From: a virus
DNA: 38,152 nucleotides
Virus genome (UHGV): UHGV-1370838
Reading direction: 5' to 3' (one strand)
Part shown: one piece after another, positions 24,182 to 37,982 of the stretch
How the letters are laid out: the number at the start of each line of letters is the position of its first letter
Numbering within the stretch: the first letter of the stretch is position 1
Program-made: the position numbers and the translations under genes
Notes under the pieces: generated by a model
What the model saw: only the letters and a program-made list of their open reading frames with translations
Databases searched by the model: none
What the model was told of the DNA's origin: nothing

Positions 24182-24412
24182 TCATGAGTAGAAGAAGTAT
24201 GCCAGTTCTGCTTTTGAGCGCAGCCATTGTCTTGATTTACAGGCTTTAAAAAGCCCATCCATCAATACCTTACCTGGCATTTTGCGCTTACCTGTTAAGT
24301 GAGTCTGGATATAGTGACTCGTCGTTCCGGCTTCCTGTGCGAAGGCTTCACGCTCATCCGGAGTAAGTGCAAGCCAGTGCTTTTTGAAATCGAAATGTCC
24401 GTTATCGCTCAT
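24182..24412 (-). CDS. Cro-like HTH regulator
   Basis: 76 aa; HTH segment TSHYIQTHLTGKRKMP; divergent from CI-like gene across operator cluster. Confidence 0.7.
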   Translation of the reverse strand: MSDNGHFDFKKHWLALTPDEREAFAQEAGTTSHYIQTHLTGKRKMPGKVLMDGLFKACKSRQWLRSKAELAYFFYS

Positions 24413-24437
24413 AGCTATTGCCTGATATTTATTTCAG

Positions 24438-24511
24438 ATAATAAATATTCACCCATAAGGTAACAAAAATCAAGGATAGTTACCTATGGGGTGCATTTAC
24501 CTGTTGGGTAA
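24438..24511. promoter_or_regulatory. tripartite operator region between cro-like and CI-like genes
   Basis: Three operator copies at 24449-24463 (TCACCCATAAGGTAA), 24480-24494 (TTACCTATGGGGTGC), 24497-24511 (TTACCTGTTGGGTAA); minus-strand -10 TATTAT at 24438-24443 with -35 TTGTTA 17 bp upstream. Confidence 0.65.
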
Positions 24512-24566
24512 TATTGCTTTAAATTGAATCATCTACTGATTCATATATGAGGCGATTTTCCAGAAA

Positions 24567-25151
24567 ATGAAAAGTATCCAGGACGTCCGCAGGCAAAATC
24601 TCAACGACTTGATCGACCGTGAATTCAATGGTGTTCAGACGCGGATGGCAGAAAAACTTGGAACTCAGGCAAATCTGGTAAACCGCTGGGCTCTTGGCAA
24701 GAAGGTTATCGGCGACCAGGTTGCGCGAAAAATTGAAGCTGCCGCCAATAAACCCCGTAACTGGCTTGATATCGATCGCTCGCTTTCTCAGGAAGGTTTT
24801 CAGCCTGTCGGCCCAAGCGACATTGGTCAGCTGGCAGCTCACAACCTGGAACGCTGGATGAGTGAAAGCCGCGACCTTTCAACTCAGGGAAAACTTCACC
24901 GCGCATCCGGCGTCGCCCAGGTGACAATAAGCCGCCTGTTAAACAATGAGGTCAGCGTTTCCATTTCCACCCTGGAGAATGTTGCATCTGCATTCGGGCG
25001 TCACGGATATGAACTACTGATTCATCCGCATGACCCTGCGACCATCAACTATGATCGCTCGCGCTACGCATTGTTACCCGAAACCGAGAAAGCAAAGATC
25101 GAAAGTTACATTGAATTTGTCATCAACCAGAACGAAAAAAACAAACAATAA
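24567..25151 (+). CDS. CI-like prophage repressor with two HTH domains and no peptidase domain
   Basis: 194 aa; two XRE-type HTH segments (residues about 25-45 and 110-135); no Ser/Lys autopeptidase motif seen. Confidence 0.7.
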   Translation: MKSIQDVRRQNLNDLIDREFNGVQTRMAEKLGTQANLVNRWALGKKVIGDQVARKIEAAANKPRNWLDIDRSLSQEGFQPVGPSDIGQLAAHNLERWMSESRDLSTQGKLHRASGVAQVTISRLLNNEVSVSISTLENVASAFGRHGYELLIHPHDPATINYDRSRYALLPETEKAKIESYIEFVINQNEKNKQ

Positions 25152-25171
25152 AACCATATTTTTCAGTAAGT

Positions 25172-25196
25172 AAGCCGCCTTATGGCGGCTTTTTTA
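25172..25196 (+). terminator. intrinsic terminator after CI-like gene
   Basis: AAGCCGCC-TTAT-GGCGGCTT followed by TTTTTATT. Confidence 0.7.
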
Positions 25197-25208
25197 TTGC
25201 CTATTCGA

Positions 25209-25285
25209 TTACCTAACGGGTAATTTTTTTAACTCATATCTATTGACATCAAACCATATACGCATAATTATTACCTCAACGGTAA
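25209..25285 (+). promoter_or_regulatory. early-left promoter region with two operators
   Basis: TTACCTAACGGGTAA (25209-25223), -35 TTGACA (25243-25248), TTACCTCAACGGTAA (25271-25285) over the -10/+1 region; operator centres 62 bp apart. Confidence 0.6.
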
Positions 25286-25304
25286 CAGACCGAGGTAACA
25301 AGTT

Positions 25305-25457
25305 ATGCAGTGGAAAATCATCAACGGTTGGTACTGCGTTACTGCATGCGGATTCATGAGCTGGAAGTTCCGCACCTTACAGGAAGGCATTAAGTGGGCT
25401 TTCGTCAGCAAAGAAGCTCGCGATGTGGCCAACGATAACGAGATATGGGAGGGCTGA
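25305..25457 (+). CDS. small ORF, first gene of early-left operon
   Basis: 50 aa, not in the ORF track; ATG preceded by GAGGTAACAAGTT. Confidence 0.35.
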   Translation: MQWKIINGWYCVTACGFMSWKFRTLQEGIKWAFVSKEARDVANDNEIWEG

Positions 25458-29523: not shown

Positions 29524-30780
29524 TTATTTATTACTGTCTTCCATCCACCTCTCAAACTTCGACGGGGAGAACGGAATCAGATCCGTATGCTCCCCGTTAA
29601 TCCAGGAATCAATCATATCGGCCCACTGCTGCAACATGTAGGCGCGCTGTCTGGCGTATTCCGCTTTGTTATATACGGCGCGCACACCTTTCTGCTCATG
29701 TGCCAGAGCCTTTTCAATCCAGTCTGAAGGATAACCAGCCTCATGCAACAACGTACTGGCTGTACGGCGCATATCGTGTACGGTGAAGCCCTGAATATGC
29801 TCACCATCTTCATTTATTATTTTCACCGTTCTGTCGATCAGAGAGTTCAGCGCGGCATTAGATAATGGCTTCCGGAAATTGTAACGACCAGGAACCAGAT
29901 ATTCACTTCCACCAGCGCACATCTGCAACCCGACCAATATATCCTGAGCCTGTTTAGGCAGGTAAATAACGTGCGCCCGGCTTCCCTTCATGCGGTCTGA
30001 AGGAATTGTCCATGTCCATTTTTTAAAATCTATTTCATCCCACGTTGCGTTGGTGAATTCGCCTTTACGAACCATAGTGATAAGCACCAGCTTTAAAGCC
30101 ATTTTCATAGTGCCCATAGCACCAATGGCATCCAGCGTGCGGAAGAACAGGCCAATTTCTTCTGGTGTCAGTGTTCGCTCTCTTGGTTTAAATATGGCGA
30201 TAGACGAAGGTTTAATGTCAGCCGCAGGATTAAACAAACCATGACCACGGTCATTGGCGTGACGGTATACGCTGCTGATGATCTCCCTTGCCTGTACTGC
30301 TGTTGCCCGACCACCGCGTTCGACAATCCGGTCACACAAATCACGAACCATCGATGTGGTAATTTCAGTCATCATTTTGTTGCCAAGAACTGGAAGTATG
30401 TCACGGTCGATCACCGCCTGCTTCATTGCGCGGGTACTGTCAGCCAGGATGACGTGTTTCATATAACTGTCGGTATGTACCGTAAACGTCTCGGCACCAT
30501 GAATCTTTTTGATACCGTCACGTTTAGCCGCAGCCGGTGACTGGCCTGCTTTAAGCAGCTTCTTTGCAGCAATCAGTTCTTCTCGCGCTTCTGCCAGGCT
30601 GATACCGTCACGCCCATACTGCCCGATTACCAGTGTTTCGCGGCGACCGTTGATACGGTAGTCATAGCGAAACGAGACCGTGCCTGACGTAAGCACAGCT
30701 ACATACAGCCCGTCACGATCGGAGACCTTGTACAGTTTGTCCTGCGGCTTGAGGTTTTTTAATTTTGTATCGGTAAGCAC
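29524..30780 (-). CDS. int: tyrosine integrase (P4-like family)
   Basis: 418 aa; P4-type N-terminal arm-binding domain pattern and C-terminal catalytic domain; GTG start. Confidence 0.9.
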   Translation of the reverse strand: MLTDTKLKNLKPQDKLYKVSDRDGLYVAVLTSGTVSFRYDYRINGRRETLVIGQYGRDGISLAEAREELIAAKKLLKAGQSPAAAKRDGIKKIHGAETFTVHTDSYMKHVILADSTRAMKQAVIDRDILPVLGNKMMTEITTSMVRDLCDRIVERGGRATAVQAREIISSVYRHANDRGHGLFNPAADIKPSSIAIFKPRERTLTPEEIGLFFRTLDAIGAMGTMKMALKLVLITMVRKGEFTNATWDEIDFKKWTWTIPSDRMKGSRAHVIYLPKQAQDILVGLQMCAGGSEYLVPGRYNFRKPLSNAALNSLIDRTVKIINEDGEHIQGFTVHDMRRTASTLLHEAGYPSDWIEKALAHEQKGVRAVYNKAEYARQRAYMLQQWADMIDSWINGEHTDLIPFSPSKFERWMEDSNK

Positions 30781-30822
30781 AATTCACCCGTATAGAAACC
30801 ATTTTCATGACGGTATGAGAGT

Positions 30823-30837
30823 ATACCTTTAAGGTAA
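30823..30837. promoter_or_regulatory. operator-like palindrome ATACCTTTAAGGTAA (1 mismatch) upstream of int
   Basis: 43 bp upstream of int start; nested inside inverted repeat GACGGTAT...ATACCGTC. Confidence 0.45.
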
Positions 30838-30892
30838 TACCGTCACCTGTACCGCAGAAAAATATGGTGTAGAGTGAATAGAAATGAATACA

Positions 30893-30926
30893 TAAAAACA
30901 AAAACCCTCTGTAAAAACAGAGGGTT
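30893..30926 (-). terminator. intrinsic terminator ending the lysis operon
   Basis: AACCCTCTG-TAAAAA-CAGAGGGTT perfect 9-bp stem; minus-strand T-run TTTGTTTTT. Confidence 0.75.
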
Positions 30927-30979
30927 AAATTAGTATCTGAATAGGAATGAGTTGCTATGAGTTAGCTGTTAATCATTCC

Positions 30980-31016
30980 CACTCAATTATTTACGGACAC
31001 CATAACCAATTGAGTG
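30980..31016. repeat. 9-bp inverted repeat CACTCAATT / AATTGAGTG with 19-bp spacer (attP-region candidate)
   Basis: Read directly, in the noncoding stretch between int and lysis genes. Confidence 0.3.
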
Positions 31017-31097
31017 ATAACATTTTTCCAAAGATGAATTTTTCCCGTACCGTTTTATATACCGTCACCGGAAATCAGTACCATGAAAAATGCCATG

Positions 31098-31580
31098 CTA
31101 TCTGGTCAGGGTGTCGTACTGTTTTTCGCAGACTCTTCCGGCTTCGGCTGCCCGGTCAGCATACTCTGCCAGTTGTCTGTTTCTCTCGAGAGATTTGCTG
31201 AGCACGTCGGCAAGCAAAACTCCGGTATCTGCGGCTGACGACCCAGCGCCGACAATGGCGTTATAGTGCCTGAGCTGCTCACGGATGGCAACGAGCTGTT
31301 GCTGCAACCGGCCAGCGCGAGCGGCAGCATCAAGAGCATCATTGCGCGCCTGGTCGATCCTCTGCTGCGCTTCACGTTCATTGATCGATTTCTCCTGTTC
31401 GTAGTGCTGACGAACTCTCTCATCTTCGGTTTTGCGGTCTTCTTTCGCCTGTGCATACCCGGCGTCGTACTGACGACTGCCGTGCACATTCCAGGCAACA
31501 ACTCCTGATATGACCAGAACAGCAAGCACCGCCATGATAATCAACTGATTACGGTATGCTTTTACGAATGCCCAGATCAT
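31098..31580 (-). CDS. i-spanin (Rz-like)
   Basis: N-terminal TM segment then Gln/Arg/Ala-rich coiled coil; last gene of lysis cassette. Confidence 0.65.
31106..31381 (-). CDS. o-spanin (Rz1-like lipoprotein) nested in +1 frame
   Basis: Signal peptide with lipobox LAGC; Pro-rich mature part; start uncertain (31381 or 31342). Confidence 0.5.
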   Translation of the reverse strand: MNVKRSRGSTRRAMMLLMLPLALAGCSNSSLPSVSSSGTITPLSALGRQPQIPEFCLPTCSANLSRETDNWQSMLTGQPKPEESAKNSTTP

Positions 31581-32504: not shown

Positions 32505-32895
32505 CGCCTTTTCTCCCCGGAATTAACTCGCGTGGATTATCGGAACGGTGATAGAGCCAGATGCCAATTCGAACTGCAACGATTGCTGACACGAATGCAC
32601 CAGCAGAGAAAACAATCCCTTTCTCGAAAGAGTCCTGCGTGATGGTAGGGATCAGGCTGGCTATGCCGATAAGAATTGATGCTGCTGGTTTATAGAAAAG
32701 AAGTCCGCAGAGAAAGCTAAGCATCGATAAGAGTACGCGACGATGAATTGGGTACTCTACCGCAGAGGTAACAAAAATTACCGCACCAGCAAGAGCACCT
32801 AAAGCCACCTCAGGCGGTATACCAACGAACACGGACGCCAGTGCAGTCAGGCTTAACCCCTGATTTACTGACTCTGTTGTCAGCACATGCGCCAT
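32494..32895 (-). CDS. holin-like membrane protein
   Basis: ATG at 32893-32895 with GGTGG SD; multiple TM segments; first gene of lysis cassette. Confidence 0.6.
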   Translation of the reverse strand: MAHVLTTESVNQGLSLTALASVFVGIPPEVALGALAGAVIFVTSAVEYPIHRRVLLSMLSFLCGLLFYKPAASILIGIASLIPTITQDSFEKGIVFSAGAFVSAIVAVRIGIWLYHRSDNPRELIPGRKGDGN

Positions 32896-33000
32896 AGTGA
32901 CCACCGTTTATTGTGCATAAAGAACCCCCTTAGTTGGTGAGTTCATCATACACAATAAACCATATGTGGATTAATTTTGATCGGATAACTCTTAACGAAA

Positions 33001-33015
33001 TTACCCTAAAGGTGA
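33001..33015. promoter_or_regulatory. operator-like palindrome TTACCCTAAAGGTGA (1 mismatch)
   Basis: In divergent region between holin and acetyltransferase. Confidence 0.4.
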
Positions 33016-33051
33016 TATCATTAACGCATCTTACTCAAAACGATAGCGATT

Positions 33052-34911
33052 ATGTCTTCTTTAAAATACAGAACTGATATAGGCGGACTCAGGGCTATTG
33101 CTGTCATGGCAGTTGTCCTTTATCACTTCGGAGTCAAAGGGTTTTCTGGTGGGTTTTCAGGAGTAGATATATTCTTTGTTATATCAGGGTATCTGATGAC
33201 TGGAATAATTTACACAAAGATAGAAAATGAAAACTTTTCACTGTTAGGATTTTATCTTGATAGGGCAAGAAGGATTATACCTGCTTTAACTGTAGTTTCA
33301 GTTGCTGTTCTGATAGTTGGTTACTTCATTCTTTTACCTTCTGAATATGAATACCTGGCTCAACACGTAAGAAGTAGCCTTTTATTTTTCTCAAACGTTG
33401 AGTATTACCATAGCATTGATTATTTTGATACTGCATCAAAGCAGAAATGGCTTCTTCATACATGGTCGCTTTCTGTAGAGTGGCAGTTTTACATGGTATA
33501 TCCAATCATAATGATGGTAATTGCAAAGCTATTGGGCGCTAAGCATATAAGGTATGTTGTTGCCATCCTTGCAATTATATCATTTACTGCCTCAGTGTAT
33601 CTTTCTTATAATAATCAGGGGGCTGCATTTTATCTTCTGTCAAGCAGAGCTTGGGAGATGCTGGCTGGCGGCCTTGCCTACCTTCTTCCTACTATACAAA
33701 ATTCAAAACGCACTGCTGTATTTAGATGGATTGCCATAGCCTTTGCAGTATCGGGGATAGTCTTGCTTAACAGCTTAATGAAGTGGCCTGGGTATCTTGC
33801 CTTAATACCAGTCGTTTCTACTTTCTTTGTCATTTATCTTGGATGTAAAGATAACCTGTTACTTGATAATGCATTATCTCAATGGGTTGGGAAAATTTCA
33901 TACTCGGTATATCTGGTTCACTGGCCCATAGTTGTCTATATGTCAATGAATAAGATGGATGATATGGTTTATACAGTATCAGGTGTTGCCTTATCAATTC
34001 TTATTGGTGCCGCATCATTTTATTTAATTGAAAACCCTTCAAGAAAGGCACTTTCAAAATTTAAAAACGGCAGGTCCTTGAATGAATTAACTTTAATCGT
34101 GCTACCTGTAGGTGGTGTAGTTGGTTTGTGCTTCGCTGTACTATTGCTATCTGGAATTCCATCAAGGTTTTCGTTTGTCACAATGACGTCCGAACAGCTA
34201 AAAGAACAAATGAACAGGTATTGGGTTGATGGAGACAAGCCTCACCCTGTACCGAAGACAGGTGACAAAAAAATAGTAATAATCGGTAATTCTCATGGCA
34301 TAGATCTGACTTATGCACTTACTGAAAATGGGATGAAGGGTGATATAACTTATATAAGAACTACAAACTTATGTTCAAACTTTGGTTATACACCAAACGA
34401 CATGCCCTATGTAGAAAAGTGCAAAAAAATATTCAATGACGTGATCTCATCTCCAGCCATAGCTGAAGCTAACATTATAATCCTTCATGATGATTATGGC
34501 GTTGGCGATCTGTTCGGGATGCTTTACTCTATAGGCAAAATACAGGAGAGGACTAAAGGAGAAGTTATTGTATTTGGGCCTAAGATGAAGTTTACGGCAC
34601 AGCCAATGGAAATAATTAAGTCTGCTTTTAAATCTGGCGTAAACACAGTTGATGGGATAAATAAATACTCTAAAAAGTATTATGACAATAGTAGAGTTGA
34701 AATTAACAATACGATAAAAGGCTATCTTGGTAGCAACCAGCATTCGTATAAATACATAGATACGCTTGCCGAGCAGTGCGGAAAGTCAATGAATTGTGAC
34801 ATCCTTTCTACTAAAGGTGATTATCTTTACTTTGACAATAGTCATTTCACTCTAGAAGGCTCAAGGGAGTTTGGGAAAAAATTAAAAAATGACAAGCCAT
34901 TTATTTTTTAA
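33052..34911 (+). CDS. O-antigen acetyltransferase (acyltransferase-3 membrane domain fused to SGNH-like domain, OafA/Oac-type)
   Basis: 619 aa; N-terminal GGLRAIAV...LYHF motif and about 10 TM segments; C-terminal soluble domain with GNSH; visibly AT-rich versus flanks. Confidence 0.85.
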   Translation: MSSLKYRTDIGGLRAIAVMAVVLYHFGVKGFSGGFSGVDIFFVISGYLMTGIIYTKIENENFSLLGFYLDRARRIIPALTVVSVAVLIVGYFILLPSEYEYLAQHVRSSLLFFSNVEYYHSIDYFDTASKQKWLLHTWSLSVEWQFYMVYPIIMMVIAKLLGAKHIRYVVAILAIISFTASVYLSYNNQGAAFYLLSSRAWEMLAGGLAYLLPTIQNSKRTAVFRWIAIAFAVSGIVLLNSLMKWPGYLALIPVVSTFFVIYLGCKDNLLLDNALSQWVGKISYSVYLVHWPIVVYMSMNKMDDMVYTVSGVALSILIGAASFYLIENPSRKALSKFKNGRSLNELTLIVLPVGGVVGLCFAVLLLSGIPSRFSFVTMTSEQLKEQMNRYWVDGDKPHPVPKTGDKKIVIIGNSHGIDLTYALTENGMKGDITYIRTTNLCSNFGYTPNDMPYVEKCKKIFNDVISSPAIAEANIIILHDDYGVGDLFGMLYSIGKIQERTKGEVIVFGPKMKFTAQPMEIIKSAFKSGVNTVDGINKYSKKYYDNSRVEINNTIKGYLGSNQHSYKYIDTLAEQCGKSMNCDILSTKGDYLYFDNSHFTLEGSREFGKKLKNDKPFIF

Positions 34912-34919
34912 TTGATGAT

Positions 34920-34936
34920 GGGGAGCATTGCTCCCC
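34920..34936. other. hairpin GGGGAGC-ATT-GCTCCCC between convergent genes
   Basis: Perfect 7-bp stem; no U-tract on either strand. Confidence 0.4.
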
Positions 34937-34946
34937 ACGCATAACA

Positions 34947-37199
34947 TCAACCTATTTTAGTGTAAGTCCAGTTAAATGTTGCCGCGCCCTGACTTGTTAC
35001 CGCTACATTCCTTCCCGATGAAGAAAATGTTATGAATGCTCCGGCTTTTAATGGCGTTAGAGTTAATGAGCCATCATACATCGCTAGTTGTGTAGAAGAG
35101 TAGTTTGTGCCGCCGCCAGAACCCCATACACTAATGAGATACATCCCCTGCATATCAGGCAATGCAAACAATGTTGTTTCGGTGTTGGCATTTACGGATT
35201 GTGTTCCTTTTGCGGTGTAGAAACCAGGTGTCTGTAGCCCCGTTGATGATACTTGTTGAGTGTAACCGCCAGAAACAGTACCAGATATCGGGGTGCAGAA
35301 CCAGTTAACGTTACCCTGACTAACTACTGATAAAACCGGGGAGCCGCCTGCAGGCGCGCGCCAACGACCGCTGTACACGTCAATTCGGGATGTTGTGTCC
35401 TTAGCGTATAACGTAATAGGGTATCCACCAGTCCCGGAGTAAGGGATTGCGCTATCAGACAAGTCATCCTCAGAAGAATCGATTATAACCTGACTTGTCC
35501 CGGATGCCTTTATGAAAGAAACGACACCACTTGCCGCCGGGGCTACAGTTTTTAACTGATTTTGCCCTGCTGTGAGCCCGGATATTTTGCCATTAGTATT
35601 CTCAAAATGGAAAAGAGTTGCATCCCCACTACCATCTGTGGAAATTATATTTCCTTCCGCATCAAATCCCACAATGTTAACGCTGTGTGAGTTAATGAAA
35701 TGGACACCTGCTCCGCCGAATGAACCACCAGAAAGTGTAATGCTTGATTGGTCCATAGCGCAGTTGAGCATAGTTACAGACATAACGGCGCCAAATTGAT
35801 AAGGCGAGACGCATCCGGATGCGTAGCAAGTCTCCATCAAAATGGTCGTACCAAGCGCCTTAATAAAGCCGTCGTGGCAATTCCGCGCCCATACGTTTTG
35901 CAACTTAGTAAGGTAAGTTCCGGTGGCGTCGTAGAAACAGCGCCATGCACCATGTACTGTGCAGTTTTTAATCTCAGACATTTCAAGACCAGTAGTACCG
36001 GCTTCAGTGGAATAGAAATTAAATGCTATCTTCCCACCATCATCTTCAGGATTCGTTGGTGTGGTTCCTGGATCATAGAAAATATAAAGACCATCAATAA
36101 AAATCTGAATCATTTTTGTCGATAGGGAATCACCTTGATCTAAAGCAAAGGCTGATATATTCCCAACAATTGACATGAAAGACTGAGAACGGTTTATTGC
36201 ATCAGTCCCTTCACCAACAATTCTGACTGAATTATTAAATATAATTGTGGCATTATAATATCCAAGACCTTTTGGGATTAGCACCTTTTTACCAGTATTA
36301 CATGCGGCCTGCAGCGCCGCATAATCCAACGATTGCGTGAGAGACGTAACAAATGGATATACCATCTGAGCAGCTGATAGTGTTGAAAATATCTCGCTTA
36401 AAGGGTGAAGCGTTCCGTCAATTGTCGCTCCAAAATCAACAACACTAATGGCTTGTGCATTTTTTATATGCTGCGAAAGAGAAATTGCCCCCTGGTAAGG
36501 CTGCTTCACTGTTATCAGCGCATCACCTTTCCCGTCAGCGCTGCTGGCCAACTGGTTGAATACGTCCGCCGCCGTTCCTGAAGGCACAGGGAAAGGAACA
36601 GGCTTCCCGTTTTGAATGCCGATAATGCTGCCTTCAAGCTGAGCGAGTGGTGGCAGCGGATCGATATAAGCGTCAGGAACTCGGATGGTATGGTTGATGT
36701 TCGATAAAGCCGTGCTGTCCACATAATTCTTTGTGGCTGCATCCTGCGGGTTAACCGGGTCTTTCAGGTTCCGAATATAGTTGTTCAGCGCGTTATAATA
36801 ATTTGCTACGAATGACGGCTTGCGCAGCGCCAAGCTAAACCAACTTCGAACCTGCTGGATCAGCATCGTTAGCTTATCAAAAGCATCCTCATGCACTTCT
36901 GCAAAGAACTTACCCTGATTACGCAAATCAGTTTCCTGCGTAACCGGGAGGTCTCGTGATATAGAAATCTGATAACCGTTAGCTAACGCCTTCGACAGAA
37001 TTACATTACCGCCATTATATCCACCAGCCCCAGTGACAGTGTAATCAGTATCAAGAGCCAGCACAGCGATATTTTCGTCAAGGTCAACCACCTGTACTAC
37101 CAGATCAGATTCCTTGAAAACCCTAAAGGTATACGGAAATGATGTCGTAACGCCGTTACCTGTGTATTCGTTGTGGTCAACTTCGGTTGAGACCGTCAT
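34947..37199 (-). CDS. tailspike / tail fibre protein
   Basis: 750 aa; N-terminal particle-binding-type domain; Gly/Ser/Thr-rich beta-helix-like body; GGAG SD. Confidence 0.8.
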   Translation of the reverse strand: MTVSTEVDHNEYTGNGVTTSFPYTFRVFKESDLVVQVVDLDENIAVLALDTDYTVTGAGGYNGGNVILSKALANGYQISISRDLPVTQETDLRNQGKFFAEVHEDAFDKLTMLIQQVRSWFSLALRKPSFVANYYNALNNYIRNLKDPVNPQDAATKNYVDSTALSNINHTIRVPDAYIDPLPPLAQLEGSIIGIQNGKPVPFPVPSGTAADVFNQLASSADGKGDALITVKQPYQGAISLSQHIKNAQAISVVDFGATIDGTLHPLSEIFSTLSAAQMVYPFVTSLTQSLDYAALQAACNTGKKVLIPKGLGYYNATIIFNNSVRIVGEGTDAINRSQSFMSIVGNISAFALDQGDSLSTKMIQIFIDGLYIFYDPGTTPTNPEDDGGKIAFNFYSTEAGTTGLEMSEIKNCTVHGAWRCFYDATGTYLTKLQNVWARNCHDGFIKALGTTILMETCYASGCVSPYQFGAVMSVTMLNCAMDQSSITLSGGSFGGAGVHFINSHSVNIVGFDAEGNIISTDGSGDATLFHFENTNGKISGLTAGQNQLKTVAPAASGVVSFIKASGTSQVIIDSSEDDLSDSAIPYSGTGGYPITLYAKDTTSRIDVYSGRWRAPAGGSPVLSVVSQGNVNWFCTPISGTVSGGYTQQVSSTGLQTPGFYTAKGTQSVNANTETTLFALPDMQGMYLISVWGSGGGTNYSSTQLAMYDGSLTLTPLKAGAFITFSSSGRNVAVTSQGAATFNWTYTKIG

Positions 37200-37303
37200 G
37201 TTAAATCTCCAGATAGTCGCAGCACCCGTTGCGCCGCATATCTGGTTATTCTATTACCTGAAAAACCATATATGGATAGAAAGGCTGTAAATACGAATAG
37301 ATA

Positions 37304-37318
37304 TTACCTTTCAGGTAA
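37304..37318. promoter_or_regulatory. operator palindrome TTACCTTTCAGGTAA
   Basis: Perfect copy between tailspike start and the LexA-box gene. Confidence 0.55.
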
Positions 37319-37355
37319 TTTGCAAAACGTGCTGGATAGCAAACAAATTATTTGC

Positions 37356-37375
37356 TACTGTATAAATATACAGTT
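37356..37375 (+). promoter_or_regulatory. LexA (SOS) box TACTGTATAAATATACAGTT
   Basis: CTGT-N8-ACAG with AT-rich spacer, perfect dyad; immediately upstream of 37381/37396 ORF. Confidence 0.75.
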
Positions 37376-37395
37376 ATTGCATGGAGAAGATTAAG

Positions 37396-37653
37396 ATGCA
37401 GCAGTATCACTATCCACTGGAAGACGGATTTACCGAAAGGATTCACACGCCGGGAGGCGTCAGGTCACTGGTGGAGGGATCGCACTTGATGAAATTACTC
37501 CGGGATCTCGATAAGGATGGATTTAATGTCGATGGCCCACTTGCCGAACTGACTGCACTGATTAACTACGTCACCAGCTCACAGATGTCTATGCGGGATC
37601 TGCAAACACATCTCGACTATTGTGCCGAACAATTACGAAAACAAACCCGGTAA
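37396..37653 (+). CDS. SOS-regulated small protein, candidate antirepressor
   Basis: ATG at 37396 has GGAG SD (37381 ATG lacks one); 85-90 aa; LexA box overlaps its promoter. Confidence 0.5.
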   Translation: MQQYHYPLEDGFTERIHTPGGVRSLVEGSHLMKLLRDLDKDGFNVDGPLAELTALINYVTSSQMSMRDLQTHLDYCAEQLRKQTR

Positions 37654-37677
37654 ATTTAAAGGCCGCAAGAGCGGCCT

Positions 37678-37689
37678 GTGACATGTCAC
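37678..37689. repeat. perfect 12-bp palindrome GTGACATGTCAC (copy 3 of 3)
   Basis: 25 bp after stop of 37381-37653; preceded by hairpin GGCCGC-AAGA-GCGGCC. Confidence 0.8.
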
Positions 37690-37982
37690 GCTCTTTTTCT
37701 GAATGATAGCCATTCGAAAAATGATGACATTCCACCGCAGACAATAGCAAAGATGATCCCACCAAAGAAGAGAAGGCCAGCCTGCCACCACTCCCACCGC
37801 CATACATCCACAGCGCCAACCATACCAACAATCGCTCCAACAAATGGAATATAGCTCACGATGAAAGCAATGGGGGCTGCAATTATCCAGTGCAATCCCC
37901 ACCATGATTCAAGCCCAGCCATAATTGCTGCCAACTGAAAAAGACCAACGACGATATAAACAATGAATCCTATAGCTTGCAT
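37686..37982 (-). CDS. small Trp-rich integral membrane protein
   Basis: 98 aa; about 3 TM segments; AGGTGA SD. Confidence 0.55.
   Translation of the reverse strand: MQAIGFIVYIVVGLFQLAAIMAGLESWWGLHWIIAAPIAFIVSYIPFVGAIVGMVGAVDVWRWEWWQAGLLFFGGIIFAIVCGGMSSFFEWLSFRKRA

What the first reader, a model, noticed from the sequence alone, without database searches (positions are those of the whole stretch)
34947..37199. Tailspike looks mosaic: conserved N-terminal anchor, compositionally different receptor-binding body
The first 150 or so residues (encoded near 37199-36750) have typical GC content and a particle-binding-type sequence. The middle of the gene (around 36100-36300) is conspicuously AT-rich and encodes a Gly/Ser/Thr/Asn-rich beta-helix-like region. 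This suggests the catalytic/receptor domain was exchanged by recombination and sets host O-antigen specificity, matching the adjacent acetyltransferase.
Basis: inference. Interest (0 to 1): 0.45.

Follow-up and report, generated by a model that had tools for sequence, protein, structure and literature searches.

The report
Patchwork tailspike of a phiV10-like phage
The tailspike gene of this phiV10-like E. coli phage really is a recombinant patchwork: a genus-typical anchor joined to a sugar-cutting body of the published "O2" type, whose outer half came from a lytic-phage version of the gene. This is a clear example of something already well known for these phages.

Summary
The 750-aa ORF at 34947-37199 (-) is the tailspike of a phiV10-like Uetakevirus (backbone about 97.6% nt identical to phiV10).

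**Mosaicism is confirmed.**
- Only aa 1-160 match other Uetakevirus tailspikes at DNA level.
- The same body occurs behind at least four other N-terminal modules: a P22 head-binding domain, a PF18668 N-terminal domain, a Kagunavirus-like anchor and a Veterinaerplatzvirus lateral fibre.

**The composition argument is only half right.**
- Anchor and body have the same overall GC (0.456 vs 0.457).
- The AT-rich island (about 36330-36000, GC3 0.27) is a leftover of an AT-rich prophage allele (E. coli FT130 type).
- That allele ends at a crossover at 36037-36031, inside the beta-helix (max chi-square 343; 0 of 1000 permutations).
- From there to about 34978 the gene is 84-100% identical to tailspikes of metagenomic siphoviruses.
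- A third allele supplies about 36359-36150.

**Specificity and pairing.**
- The body meets the published criterion for the "O2" subtype.
- Eleven of 12 checked host genomes carrying related bodies have O2/O50 wzy (base rate 2.45%).
- The adjacent AT3-SGNH acyltransferase differs by 1 nt from FT130's. Pairing therefore holds at family level, but the outer body half was swapped independently.

This is a new member of a known kind.

The parts
34947..37199 (-). Tailspike gene, 750 aa plus stop
   Evidence: ORF. PHROG 8649 matches full length and many 'tail' PHROGs match the N-terminus. Gene position and backbone are as in phiV10. The identical gene (0 of 2253 differences) is on four contigs from four assemblies, one of them in the E. 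coli chromosome next to yfgI/pdeF.
36750..37199 (-). Module A, aa 1-150: Uetakevirus particle-binding anchor
   Evidence: 76-90% nt identity to tailspike 5' ends of PAS61, TL-2011b, phiV10, epsilon15-like Salmonella phages and Tyrion; matches stop at nt 470-492. 90-100% aa identity to phiV10, L011 and L012 anchors. PDB Dpo31 tailspike aa 1-159, E=2e-26. Ends at the NLKDPVNPQDAATKNYVD motif, a weak Pfam T7 tail-fibre N-domain hit at aa 135-164. The AF2 model is poor here (pLDDT below 50), because few anchor sequences were in the alignment.
36525..36749 (-). Module B, aa 151-225: neck/linker, shared with some Uetakevirus tailspikes but not phiV10
   Evidence: Homology to phiV10 DNA ends at 36718. 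aa identity to phiV10 falls from 0.8 to 0.3 across aa 150-190. L012/P0059 keeps 0.88-0.92 up to aa 225 and then diverges; P0111 keeps 0.6-0.72. PDB 9m4d aligns to aa 136-220, E=1.5e-6. Highest GC of the gene, 0.53-0.60.
36285..36524 (-). Module C, aa 226-305: helical N-terminal cap of the receptor-binding domain, the most widely shared part
   Evidence: From about aa 225 (GKGDALITVKQPY) the P22-type (PF09008), PF18668-type, Kagunavirus-like and lateral-fibre proteins all become alignable. aa 250-341 match Pseudomonas phage LKA1 gp49 (E=1.3e-14) and phi297 gp27; aa 212-278 match the Sf6 tailspike. The 991-aa P0111 protein (a source's name for it includes 'Peptidase S74 domain-containing') shares the protein only up to about aa 300. 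Helices at 243-256, 274-280 and 291-300 in the model.
35460..36284 (-). Module D, aa 306-580: right-handed parallel beta-helix, the presumed O-antigen binding and cleaving part
34950..35459 (-). Module E, aa 581-750: C-terminal beta-sandwich domain
   Evidence: All-beta model, pLDDT 61-93 with a weak loop at 652-660. It is the most divergent part versus the FT130 allele (36-56% aa at aa 601-675) but 80-96% to the siphovirus alleles. It ends in the conserved FNWTYTK(I/L)G.
36000..36330 (-).
   Evidence: GC 0.376, GC3 0.273. In aligned columns covering aa 315-373, the FT130 and ETEC P22-type alleles have GC 0.31 while the siphovirus alleles have 0.46-0.48. The window follows the prophage alleles here and the siphovirus alleles after the crossover.
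36360..37199 (-). Recombination tract 1: FT130-prophage-like
   Evidence: 95-100% nt identity to E. coli FT130 prophage tailspike (L001) in 60-nt bins. 75 of 75 informative sites are FT130-type between 36527 and 36349.
36150..36359 (-). Recombination tract 2: patch from a third allele (P0029 type)
   Evidence: 100% nt identity to L014 (GCA_001650555.1, protein P0029) over 36359-36180, but only 70-82% to FT130. The flanks show the reverse pattern. Informative sites are mixed, 39 F and 20 S.
36038..36149 (-). Recombination tract 3: again FT130/ETEC-like
   Evidence: 44 of 44 informative sites are FT130-type. 100% nt identity to FT130, MFDS1019527 and the ETEC P22-type allele at aa 351-375.
36031..36037 (-). 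Crossover point inside the beta-helix (codons 388-390, DDGGK|IAF), in a shared GTGGGAA
   Evidence: The last FT130-type site is at 36038 and the first siphovirus-type site at 36030. Maximum chi-square 342.9 at this position; the permuted maximum was 19.7 and 0 of 1000 permutations reached it.
34978..36030 (-). Recombination tract 4: siphovirus-type outer beta-helix plus C-terminal domain (aa 390-741)
   Evidence: 340 of 366 informative sites are siphovirus-type. 84-100% nt identity to L010 (P0033, Kagunavirus-like contig) and 67-96% to L009 (P0034, PF18668 N-terminus), against 47-76% to FT130. Donor backbones were identified.
34947..34977 (-). Return to FT130-like sequence in the last ~10 codons (FNWTYTKIG, stop)
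   Evidence: 6 of 7 informative sites are FT130-type. Downstream, 32900-34946 is 98.9% identical to FT130.
33052..34911 (+). Convergent AT3-SGNH acyltransferase (619 aa), presumed O-antigen O-acetylase for lysogenic conversion
   Evidence: Pfam Acyl_transf_3 (1e-31) plus SGNH (8e-13). PHROG 6705 'O-antigen acetylase', 4.5e-179. GC 0.37. 1 nt of 1860 differs from FT130 and 20 from MFDS1019527. It occupies the position of phiV10 oac, which is unrelated in sequence.

Best explanation
This is the single tailspike (receptor-binding protein) of a temperate phiV10/epsilon15-like podovirus (Uetakevirus) of Escherichia coli.

Architecture:
- aa 1-150 are the genus-specific anchor that plugs the trimer into the tail.
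- aa 151-225 are a neck.
- aa 226-305 are a widely shared helical cap.
- aa 306-580 are a right-handed beta-helix.
- aa 581-750 are a C-terminal beta-sandwich.
- The beta-helix and the sandwich together bind, and probably cleave, the O-polysaccharide of the host.

Origin:
- The gene was built by recombination at several levels.
- First, relative to phiV10, a 3.7-kb block (36717-33023: neck, body and acyltransferase) is a different cassette.
- Second, the same body family is joined at about aa 225 to unrelated anchors in P22-like prophages, Kagunavirus-like and other siphoviruses, and Veterinaerplatzvirus lateral fibres.
- Third, inside the body, homologous recombination between diverged alleles produced the pattern FT130-like / P0029-like / FT130-like / siphovirus-like / FT130-like.
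- The main crossover is at 36037-36031, in the middle of the beta-helix. The return crossover lies in the conserved last ten codons.
- The AT-rich island is the surviving piece of the AT-rich prophage allele.

Specificity:
- The body belongs to the published 'O2' receptor-binding subtype, so the phage most likely adsorbs to O2 (O2/O50-type) O-antigen.
- The neighbouring AT3-SGNH acyltransferase probably O-acetylates that antigen in lysogens to block superinfection, as shown for phiV10 Oac on O157.

Shown: homologies, breakpoints, fold, host association of relatives. Inferred: trimer, enzymatic activity, O2 specificity of this particular chimera, direction of transfer, role of the acyltransferase.
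For: Backbone and module level:
- The backbone is 97.6% identical to phiV10.
- DNA hits in isolated phages cover only nt 1-480 of the gene.
- phiV10 homology stops at 36718 and resumes at 33022.
- The body sits behind PF09008, PF18668, Kagunavirus-like and lateral-fibre N-termini.

Within-body recombination:
- Sliding nt identity and informative-site runs fix the breakpoints.
- Maximum chi-square is 342.9, with 0 of 1000 permutations as high.
- GC of aligned alleles explains the AT island.
- The chimera is identical in four independent assemblies, one integrated beside yfgI/pdeF.

Fold:

O2 specificity:
- tblastn gives 48.9% identity over 91% coverage to 611R6 and 58.8% over 88% to JeanPiccard.
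- The body is 43% identical to the L012 allele, whose DNA is 99.2% identical to the gene in strain SCU-116.
- All three are labelled subtype 'O2' in Pas et al. 2023, Table S1 and Fig. S4 (PMC10408124). Their subtype criterion is at least 30% identity and 60% coverage.
- Hosts of the FT130-type body are O2/O50 in 4 of 4 checked (FT130, MFDS1019527, PEC422, ETEC1730).
- Hosts of the L012-type body are O2/O50 in 7 of 8.
- The base rate is 133 of 5426 genomes.

Acyltransferase:
- Pfam AT3 plus SGNH and PHROG 'O-antigen acetylase'.
- Acyltransferases co-vary with body type: 100%, 99%, 45%, 32% and no hit.
- The phiV10 record annotates oac as acetylating the O-antigen for superinfection immunity.
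Against: - No host is known for the window itself, so O2 specificity rests on relatives that are 43-73% identical in the body.
- The chimera joins inner rungs from one allele to outer rungs and the C-domain from another, and the effect on specificity is unknown.
- JeanPiccard, which carries a 59%-identical body, has E. coli K-12 as its listed host. K-12 lacks O-antigen (my own knowledge), so such a body is not always needed for infection.
- Pas et al. note that some subtypes occur across several serogroups.
- Four ETEC and PEC pig strains may be clonally related, so the host counts are not fully independent.
- One L012-type host (HCP4S3_I4) could not be verified.
- The direction of transfer (siphovirus to prophage) is only a parsimony argument. 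The chimera is one cluster (7 contigs read), against many siphovirus clusters.
- The model is a monomer, and no catalytic residues were verified.
Confidence: 0.85

Rival explanations
1. The direction or source is different. The siphoviruses acquired their outer body from a Uetakevirus prophage like this one, or both took it from an unsampled third lineage. The mosaic is then equally real, but the window carries the ancestral arrangement for that segment.
For: Identity to the siphovirus alleles is 84-100%, not uniformly 100%, so neither sampled contig is the direct donor. Such exchange has been reported between Uetakevirus and Kagunavirus (PMC11522302) without a fixed direction.
Against: The chimera is rare: one 90% cluster, all copies identical. 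The siphovirus-type allele sits in more than 25 clusters on two different siphovirus backbones. Its GC (0.46-0.48) fits those phages' loci (0.46-0.50) and not the AT-rich prophage cassette (0.37-0.40). The flanks, including the acyltransferase, are 1 nt from FT130, so the insert is the recent event on an FT130-like background.
Confidence: 0.2
2. The tailspike body targets something other than the O2 O-antigen, such as a capsule, enterobacterial common antigen or a modified O-unit, and the O2/O50 host association is indirect.
For: A related body sits on the lateral fibre of JeanPiccard, whose listed host is E. coli K-12. Pas et al. list subtypes that cross serogroups. Many O2 strains are K1-encapsulated, for example the O2:K1 APEC strains in the wzy list. 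Some genomes carry two prophages with different bodies of this family.
Against: 11 of 12 hosts across birds, cattle, pigs, humans and a monkey share O2/O50 wzy, against a 2.45% base rate. The published assignment of the subtype is O2. An O-antigen acyltransferase is the partner gene in every Uetakevirus copy.
Confidence: 0.1
3. The compositional dip is just local codon or amino-acid usage in a single-origin gene, and no intragenic recombination took place.
For: The island is Ile-rich (10.9%).
Against: Homologous columns in siphovirus alleles have GC 0.46-0.48 against 0.31 in prophage alleles. GC3 is 0.27. Informative sites switch from 158 F: 20 S to 32 F: 341 S at one point.
Confidence: 0.02
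4. The chimera is a metagenome assembly artefact that joins a prophage and a co-occurring lytic phage.
For: The window matches metagenome scaffolds, and both parental types occur in gut and wastewater metagenomes.
Against: Shared sequence at the crossover is only 7 nt, and 14 nt a little further on. I judge that too short for an assembler to join contigs there. The same 2253-nt sequence, with no differences, appears in two ENA assemblies and two Logan assemblies from different runs, one inside E. coli chromosomal flanks.
Confidence: 0.02

Closest known systems
phiV10 tailspike (PhiV10p25) with Oac, and the Uetakevirus tailspike architecture described by Pas et al. 2023 (PMC10408124) and 2024 (PMC11522302)
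   Same: Same genus backbone (97.6% nt) and the same gene position. The anchor is 90.6% aa identical. A convergent O-antigen acyltransferase lies downstream, followed by the holin and endolysin genes. The same principle applies: the anchor is conserved in the genus and the RBD is exchanged across genera, including a reported Uetakevirus-Kagunavirus exchange.
   Different: The body is unrelated to phiV10's O157-specific body (no BLASTP hit). The acyltransferase is a 619-aa AT3-SGNH fusion rather than the 338-aa AT3-only Oac. Homology to phiV10 ends at aa ~160, not at the aa 205 used as the phiV10 anchor limit in the paper. This copy also has crossovers inside the beta-helix.
Published 'O2' RBP subtype: Lederbergvirus 611R6 RBP, Veterinaerplatzvirus JeanPiccard RBP, SCU-116 Uetakevirus prophage RBP (Pas et al. 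2023, Table S1 and Fig. S4)
   Same: The body aligns at 48.9% identity over 91% coverage (611R6), 58.8% over 88% (JeanPiccard) and 43% over 528 aa (L012, equivalent to the SCU-116 type). All exceed the subtype threshold of at least 30% identity and 60% coverage. Hosts of relatives are O2/O50.
   Different: No isolated phage in the collection is more than 60% identical over the body. The nearest relatives are metagenomic siphovirus proteins (75-83%) and E. coli prophages (81% overall). This allele is a chimera of two sub-lineages of the subtype.
E. coli FT130 / MFDS1019527 Uetakevirus prophage tailspike-acyltransferase cassette
   Same: Same integration neighbourhood (yfgI-pdeF), same architecture (751 vs 750 aa) and about 100% nt identity for aa 1-283 and 351-389. 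The acyltransferase differs by 1 nt.
   Different: aa 390-741 are only 36-80% identical (47-76% nt), and aa 284-350 come from another allele.
Sf6 (tailspike endorhamnosidase plus Oac) and P22-type tailspikes
   Same: Works alike: an N-terminal particle-binding domain, a beta-helix O-antigen depolymerase and a prophage O-acetyltransferase that alters the same antigen. The Sf6 tailspike is a top structural hit, and aa 212-278 align in sequence. P22-like prophages carry this very body behind PF09008.
   Different: The anchor fold and family differ. There is no sequence similarity in the catalytic rungs, and the catalytic residues and bond cleaved are unknown here.
Pseudomonas phage LKA1 gp49 and phi297 gp27 tailspikes (4RU4, 4RU5)
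   Different: Only about 13-20% identity over the aligned structure. Different host and glycan. Membership of one enzyme family is not established.

Membership tests
Uetakevirus (epsilon15/phiV10-like) tailspike | N-terminal anchor homologous to the genus anchor | tested here: met
   76-90% nt identity to 16 Uetakevirus or related tailspike 5' ends. 90-100% aa identity over aa 1-150.
Uetakevirus (epsilon15/phiV10-like) tailspike | Encoded at the conserved position in a Uetakevirus genome: after the epsilon15p19-like small gene and before the O-antigen-modification gene and lysis cassette | tested here: met
   Backbone 97.6% identical to phiV10. Gene order matches phiV10, FT130 and the metagenomic copies.
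Uetakevirus (epsilon15/phiV10-like) tailspike | C-terminal right-handed parallel beta-helix receptor-binding domain | tested here: met
Uetakevirus (epsilon15/phiV10-like) tailspike | Homotrimer attached to the virion tail; O-antigen depolymerase activity | not testable with these tools
'O2' RBP subtype of Pas et al. 2023 | At least 30% aa identity over at least 60% of the RBD to subtype members | tested here: met
   611R6 48.9% over 91% coverage and JeanPiccard 58.8% over 88%. L012/SCU-116 type 43% over 528 aa. Subtype labels are and the criterion.
'O2' RBP subtype of Pas et al. 2023 | Host (or lysogen) serogroup is O2 | tested here: inconclusive
   The window's own host is unknown: the contigs carry only E. 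coli core flanks. Hosts of the closest prophage alleles are O2/O50 by wzx/wzy annotation and wzy megablast in 11 of 12 checked, against a base rate of 133/5426.
AT3-SGNH O-antigen acyltransferases (OafA/OafB-like) for the neighbouring gene | N-terminal Acyl_transf_3 membrane domain fused to a C-terminal SGNH domain | tested here: met
   PF01757 at aa 10-319 (1e-31) and PF19040 at aa 402-611 (8e-13). PHROG 6705 'O-antigen acetylase'.
AT3-SGNH O-antigen acyltransferases (OafA/OafB-like) for the neighbouring gene | O-acetylation of the O-antigen recognised by the phage | not testable with these tools
   Inferred from position (same slot as phiV10 oac) and from co-variation with body type.
LKA1 gp49-type O-antigen lyase tailspikes | Homology through the catalytic beta-helix, with conserved catalytic residues | tested here: not met
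   Sequence homology is limited to aa 250-341, the cap and first rungs. The rest is similar in fold only, at 13-20% identity. I therefore do not file it as a member; the resemblance is at fold level.

The most novel reading that the evidence does not exclude
The outer-body swap could be an escape from lysogenic conversion.

- The acyltransferase is unchanged (1 nt from FT130's), while the outer beta-helix and C-domain were replaced by an allele from lytic siphoviruses.
- Those siphoviruses must be able to infect O2 strains, which would include lysogens whose O-antigen is acetylated.
- The chimera may therefore recognise or tolerate the O-acetylated O2 antigen that its own acyltransferase makes. 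That would let this temperate phage superinfect lysogens of FT130-type prophages.
- More broadly, three different AT3-SGNH acyltransferases (619, 646 and 661 aa, 30-45% identical) are each paired with a different allele of this body family; the hosts of the 619- and 646-aa types checked are O2/O50 (the L011 host was not examined).
- This could be a within-serogroup arms race of modification and counter-adapted tailspikes.
Probability: 0.1. Interest if true: 0.55.

Novelty: new member of a known kind. Interest (0 to 1): 0.3.

Why it matters
Anchor/receptor-domain shuffling in Uetakevirus tailspikes is already documented. It is used to predict serogroup specificity and to engineer host range, so the main claim adds no new principle.

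What this locus adds:
- It is a well-resolved natural example of recombination inside the beta-helix, with near-base-pair breakpoints (a 7-nt window and a ~12-nt window).
- The recombination is between a prophage allele and a lytic siphovirus allele of the same (O2) subtype.
- It shows that chimeric beta-helices joined in mid-helix persist in natural populations.
- It shows that a local GC anomaly can mark such a junction.

This is useful for people who design chimeric tailspikes or predict O-serogroup from prophage RBPs. It also gives an O2-type tailspike variant with no close isolated relative.

Tried and rejected
- Pfam gave no domain for the body, only a sub-threshold T7 tail-fibre N-domain hit.
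- The promoter and terminator scan of 32800-37800 gave nothing above shuffles that bears on the gene, and no terminator between the convergent genes.
- GC-skew profiles showed no informative signal.
- Source names of cluster members did not give usable serotypes: 'E. coli O2' appeared for two different body types.
- Literature searches for strain names (ETEC1730, FT130 and others) gave no serotype.
- Three coordinate guesses for the ETEC1730 O-antigen cluster missed, because the genome is rearranged. The fourth found it.
- ETEC1703, ETEC1717, ETEC1718 and HCP4S3_I4 were not verified.
- I considered whether other low-GC islands in the window (30681-31170; 24261-25410) point to similar events. 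They are the attP/integrase-adjacent intergenic region and the immunity region, which is ordinary.
Full report
**1. What is there**

- The ORF at 34947..37199 (minus strand) is intact and encodes 750 aa.
- The window is nearly a whole phiV10-like temperate podovirus. Bases 1-25000 are 97.6% identical to phiV10 and its relatives, and the rest matches at 93-97% wherever it matches at all.
- Gene order around the ORF is that of phiV10: an epsilon15p19-like small gene, the tailspike, a convergent O-antigen acyltransferase, then two holin-type genes, an endolysin and an Rz-like gene.
- The same 2253-nt gene, with no differences, lies on four contigs from four assemblies. One of these is inside the E. 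coli chromosome next to yfgI/yfgH/pdeF/ppx, which is the site used by a related prophage in E. coli FT130. The host is therefore Escherichia, and the sequence is not an assembly artefact.

**2. The observation**

- *Anchor composition.* Its GC (0.456) is about one SD below the backbone mean (0.503, SD 0.045).
- *AT-rich stretch.* It is real and unusual. The minimum 200-nt GC is 0.325 at 36071, reached by 0.09% of backbone windows. Residues 291-400 have GC3 of 0.273.
- *Body as a whole.* It has the same GC as the anchor (0.457 vs 0.456) and is internally heterogeneous.
- *Amino-acid composition.* The AT-rich stretch is only slightly enriched in G/S/T/N (0.32 vs 0.28). The strong enrichment (0.38-0.48) is further C-terminal.

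**3. Mosaicism at module level**

- Megablast against 50,697 phage records finds only nt 1-480 of the gene, at 76-90% identity. All hits are in tailspike or tail-fibre genes of Uetakevirus-type phages.
- Homology to phiV10 DNA stops at 36718 and resumes at 33022. A 3.7-kb block (neck, body and acyltransferase) therefore differs from phiV10.
- The body (from about aa 225, GKGDALITVKQPY) is found behind several unrelated N-termini:
  - the P22 head-binding domain PF09008, in pig ETEC prophages;
  - a PF18668 N-terminal domain, in 47-kb siphoviruses related to ChristineMuster_Bas80;
  - a Kagunavirus-like anchor (backbone 97% identical to fBC-Eco01);
  - 840-860-aa lateral fibres of Veterinaerplatzvirus.
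- Other junctions exist:
  - phiV10 shares the protein only to about aa 150-160.
  - The L012 allele shares it to about aa 225.
  - A 991-aa protein (P0111), which a source names as containing a peptidase S74 domain, shares it to about aa 300.
- The protein is thus anchor (1-150), neck (151-225), cap (226-305), beta-helix (306-580) and C-terminal sandwich (581-750).
- The cap and first rungs (aa 250-341) are the part with solved-structure sequence relatives: LKA1 gp49 at 1.3e-14, phi297 gp27 and Sf6.

**4. Mosaicism inside the body, and what the AT-rich island is**

- Codon-aligned comparison with five alleles shows the following:
  - 37199-36360 is 95-100% identical to the FT130 prophage gene.
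  - 36359-36180 is 100% identical to a third allele (P0029, GCA_001650555.1) and only 70-82% to FT130.
  - 36149-36038 is again 100% FT130-like.
  - From 36030 to about 34978 the gene is 84-100% identical to the Kagunavirus-like contig L010 (67-96% to L009) and only 47-76% to FT130.
- Informative sites switch from 158 FT130-type and 20 siphovirus-type to 32 and 341 between 36038 and 36030. Maximum chi-square is 342.9, the permuted maximum is 19.7, and 0 of 1000 permutations reach the observed value.
- The crossover lies in a shared GTGGGAA at codons 388-390, in the middle of the beta-helix.
- The return crossover lies in the conserved last codons, FNWTYTKIG.
- Downstream DNA is 98.9% identical to FT130, and the acyltransferase gene differs by 1 nt of 1860.
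- In aligned columns for aa 315-373, the prophage alleles have GC 0.31 and the siphovirus alleles 0.46-0.48. The window tracks the prophage alleles up to the crossover and the siphovirus alleles after it.
- The island is therefore the remnant of an AT-rich prophage cassette. The FT130 body has GC 0.40 and the acyltransferase 0.37. The remnant is bounded on the right by the crossover.

**5. Specificity and the acyltransferase**

- The supplementary table and figure of Pas et al. 2023 (PMC10408124) label the RBPs of Lederbergvirus 611R6, JeanPiccard and a Uetakevirus prophage of strain SCU-116 as subtype 'O2'. Their subtype rule is at least 30% identity over at least 60% coverage.
- The window's body matches 611R6 at 48.9% over 91% coverage and JeanPiccard at 58.8% over 88%. 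It matches the L012 allele at 43%, and that allele's DNA is 99.2% identical to the SCU-116 gene.
- As an independent check, I looked at the hosts of related bodies:
  - FT130's O-antigen cluster is annotated O2/O50 wzx and wzy, and that wzy occurs in 133 of 5426 complete genomes.
  - All four checked hosts of the FT130-type body carry it: FT130, MFDS1019527, PEC422 and ETEC1730.
  - So do 7 of 8 hosts of the L012-type body.
[quoted passage not shown] O2 adds a D-Fuc3NAc branch (PMC7685785).
- The most likely receptor is therefore the O2/O50-type O-antigen. This remains an inference for this chimera.
- The neighbour is an AT3-SGNH acyltransferase in the slot of phiV10 oac. The phiV10 record says oac acetylates the O-antigen for superinfection immunity.
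- Across Uetakevirus copies, body and acyltransferase change together. Body identity of 73, 73, 53, 43% and none goes with acyltransferase identity of 100, 99, 45, 32% and none.
- Within the FT130 group, however, the outer body was replaced without touching the acyltransferase.

**6. Mechanism**

- *Shown:* homologies, breakpoints, fold and host association.
- *Inferred:*
  - The protein forms a trimer anchored by aa 1-150.
  - The beta-helix and C-domain bind and cleave O2-type O-antigen. The near-invariant residues D424, D483, D513 and E515 are catalytic candidates, and all lie in the siphovirus-derived half.
  - The chimera arose when a lytic siphovirus carrying the same subtype infected an FT130-type lysogen and homologous recombination exchanged about 1.05 kb.

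**7. Comparison with what is known, and verdict**

- Conserved anchors and horizontally exchanged RBDs in Uetakeviruses are already described. This includes Uetakevirus-Kagunavirus exchange and the caveat about O-antigen-modification genes behind the RBP (PMC10408124; PMC11522302).
- This locus is a new, previously undescribed allele of a published subtype, with unusually clear crossovers inside the helix.
- It is a solid but ordinary finding. Novelty: new member of a known kind. Interest: about 0.3.

Noticed in passing
window 33052-34911 (+); L011 7253-9238; L012 7263-9203: Uetakevirus prophages carry three different AT3-SGNH acyltransferases (619, 646 and 661 aa; 30-45% identical, one on the opposite strand). 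Each is paired with a different allele of the same tailspike body family. The 619- and 646-aa types sit in O2/O50 hosts where checked; the L011 host was not examined. This suggests several distinct modifications of one O-antigen.
   Followed up: partly
L014 4001-5794 (GCA_001650555.1 contig JZDN01000009.1): The P0029 tailspike allele, donor type of the 36359-36180 patch, departs from its relatives after about aa 540 and is overlapped by an rve-family transposase gene on the other strand. It looks like an IS insertion that inactivated the tailspike of that prophage.
   Followed up: no
proteins P0109-P0117 (991 aa): The same anchor, neck and cap (to about aa 300, 77-78% identity) is fused in E. 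coli and E. marmotae to a different, longer body; a source name for one of them (P0111) includes 'Peptidase S74 domain-containing'. This gives another junction, at the NTGK motif after the cap.
   Followed up: partly
(contigs of 5,226,869 bp and 759,726 bp): Judged by matching longest-contig lengths, single E. coli genomes appear to carry two prophages, one P22-like and one Uetakevirus, with different alleles of this O2-subtype body (P0126 with P0143; P0002 with P0104).
   Followed up: no
L019 17461-18422 (ETEC1730 chromosome 1867461-1868422): In pig strain ETEC1730 the O2/O50 wzy, and a neighbouring gene in the O-antigen cluster annotated as DUF1972 domain-containing, are annotated as frameshifted. 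The region between yehD and yecA is rearranged at IS elements. This is either O-antigen loss or sequencing error.
   Followed up: no
window 30781-31097 and 24182-25151: There are other low-GC islands. One is the intergenic region between the integrase and the Rz-like gene (probable attP, minimum GC 0.315 at 30861). The other is the divergent repressor/cro-like immunity region. Both are ordinary for a temperate phage.
   Followed up: partly
MZ501080.1 (JeanPiccard), H34; A phage whose listed host is E. coli K-12 (which, to my knowledge, lacks O-antigen) carries a lateral fibre with a body 59% identical to this one, and that fibre is labelled O2-subtype in the literature. The fibre is presumably dispensable on K-12.
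   Followed up: no
window 37660-37677 (-): A strong terminator-like hairpin (7 pairs, 6 of them GC) lies upstream of the small-gene and tailspike region, at the position where phiV10 has an annotated terminator after p21.
   Followed up: no
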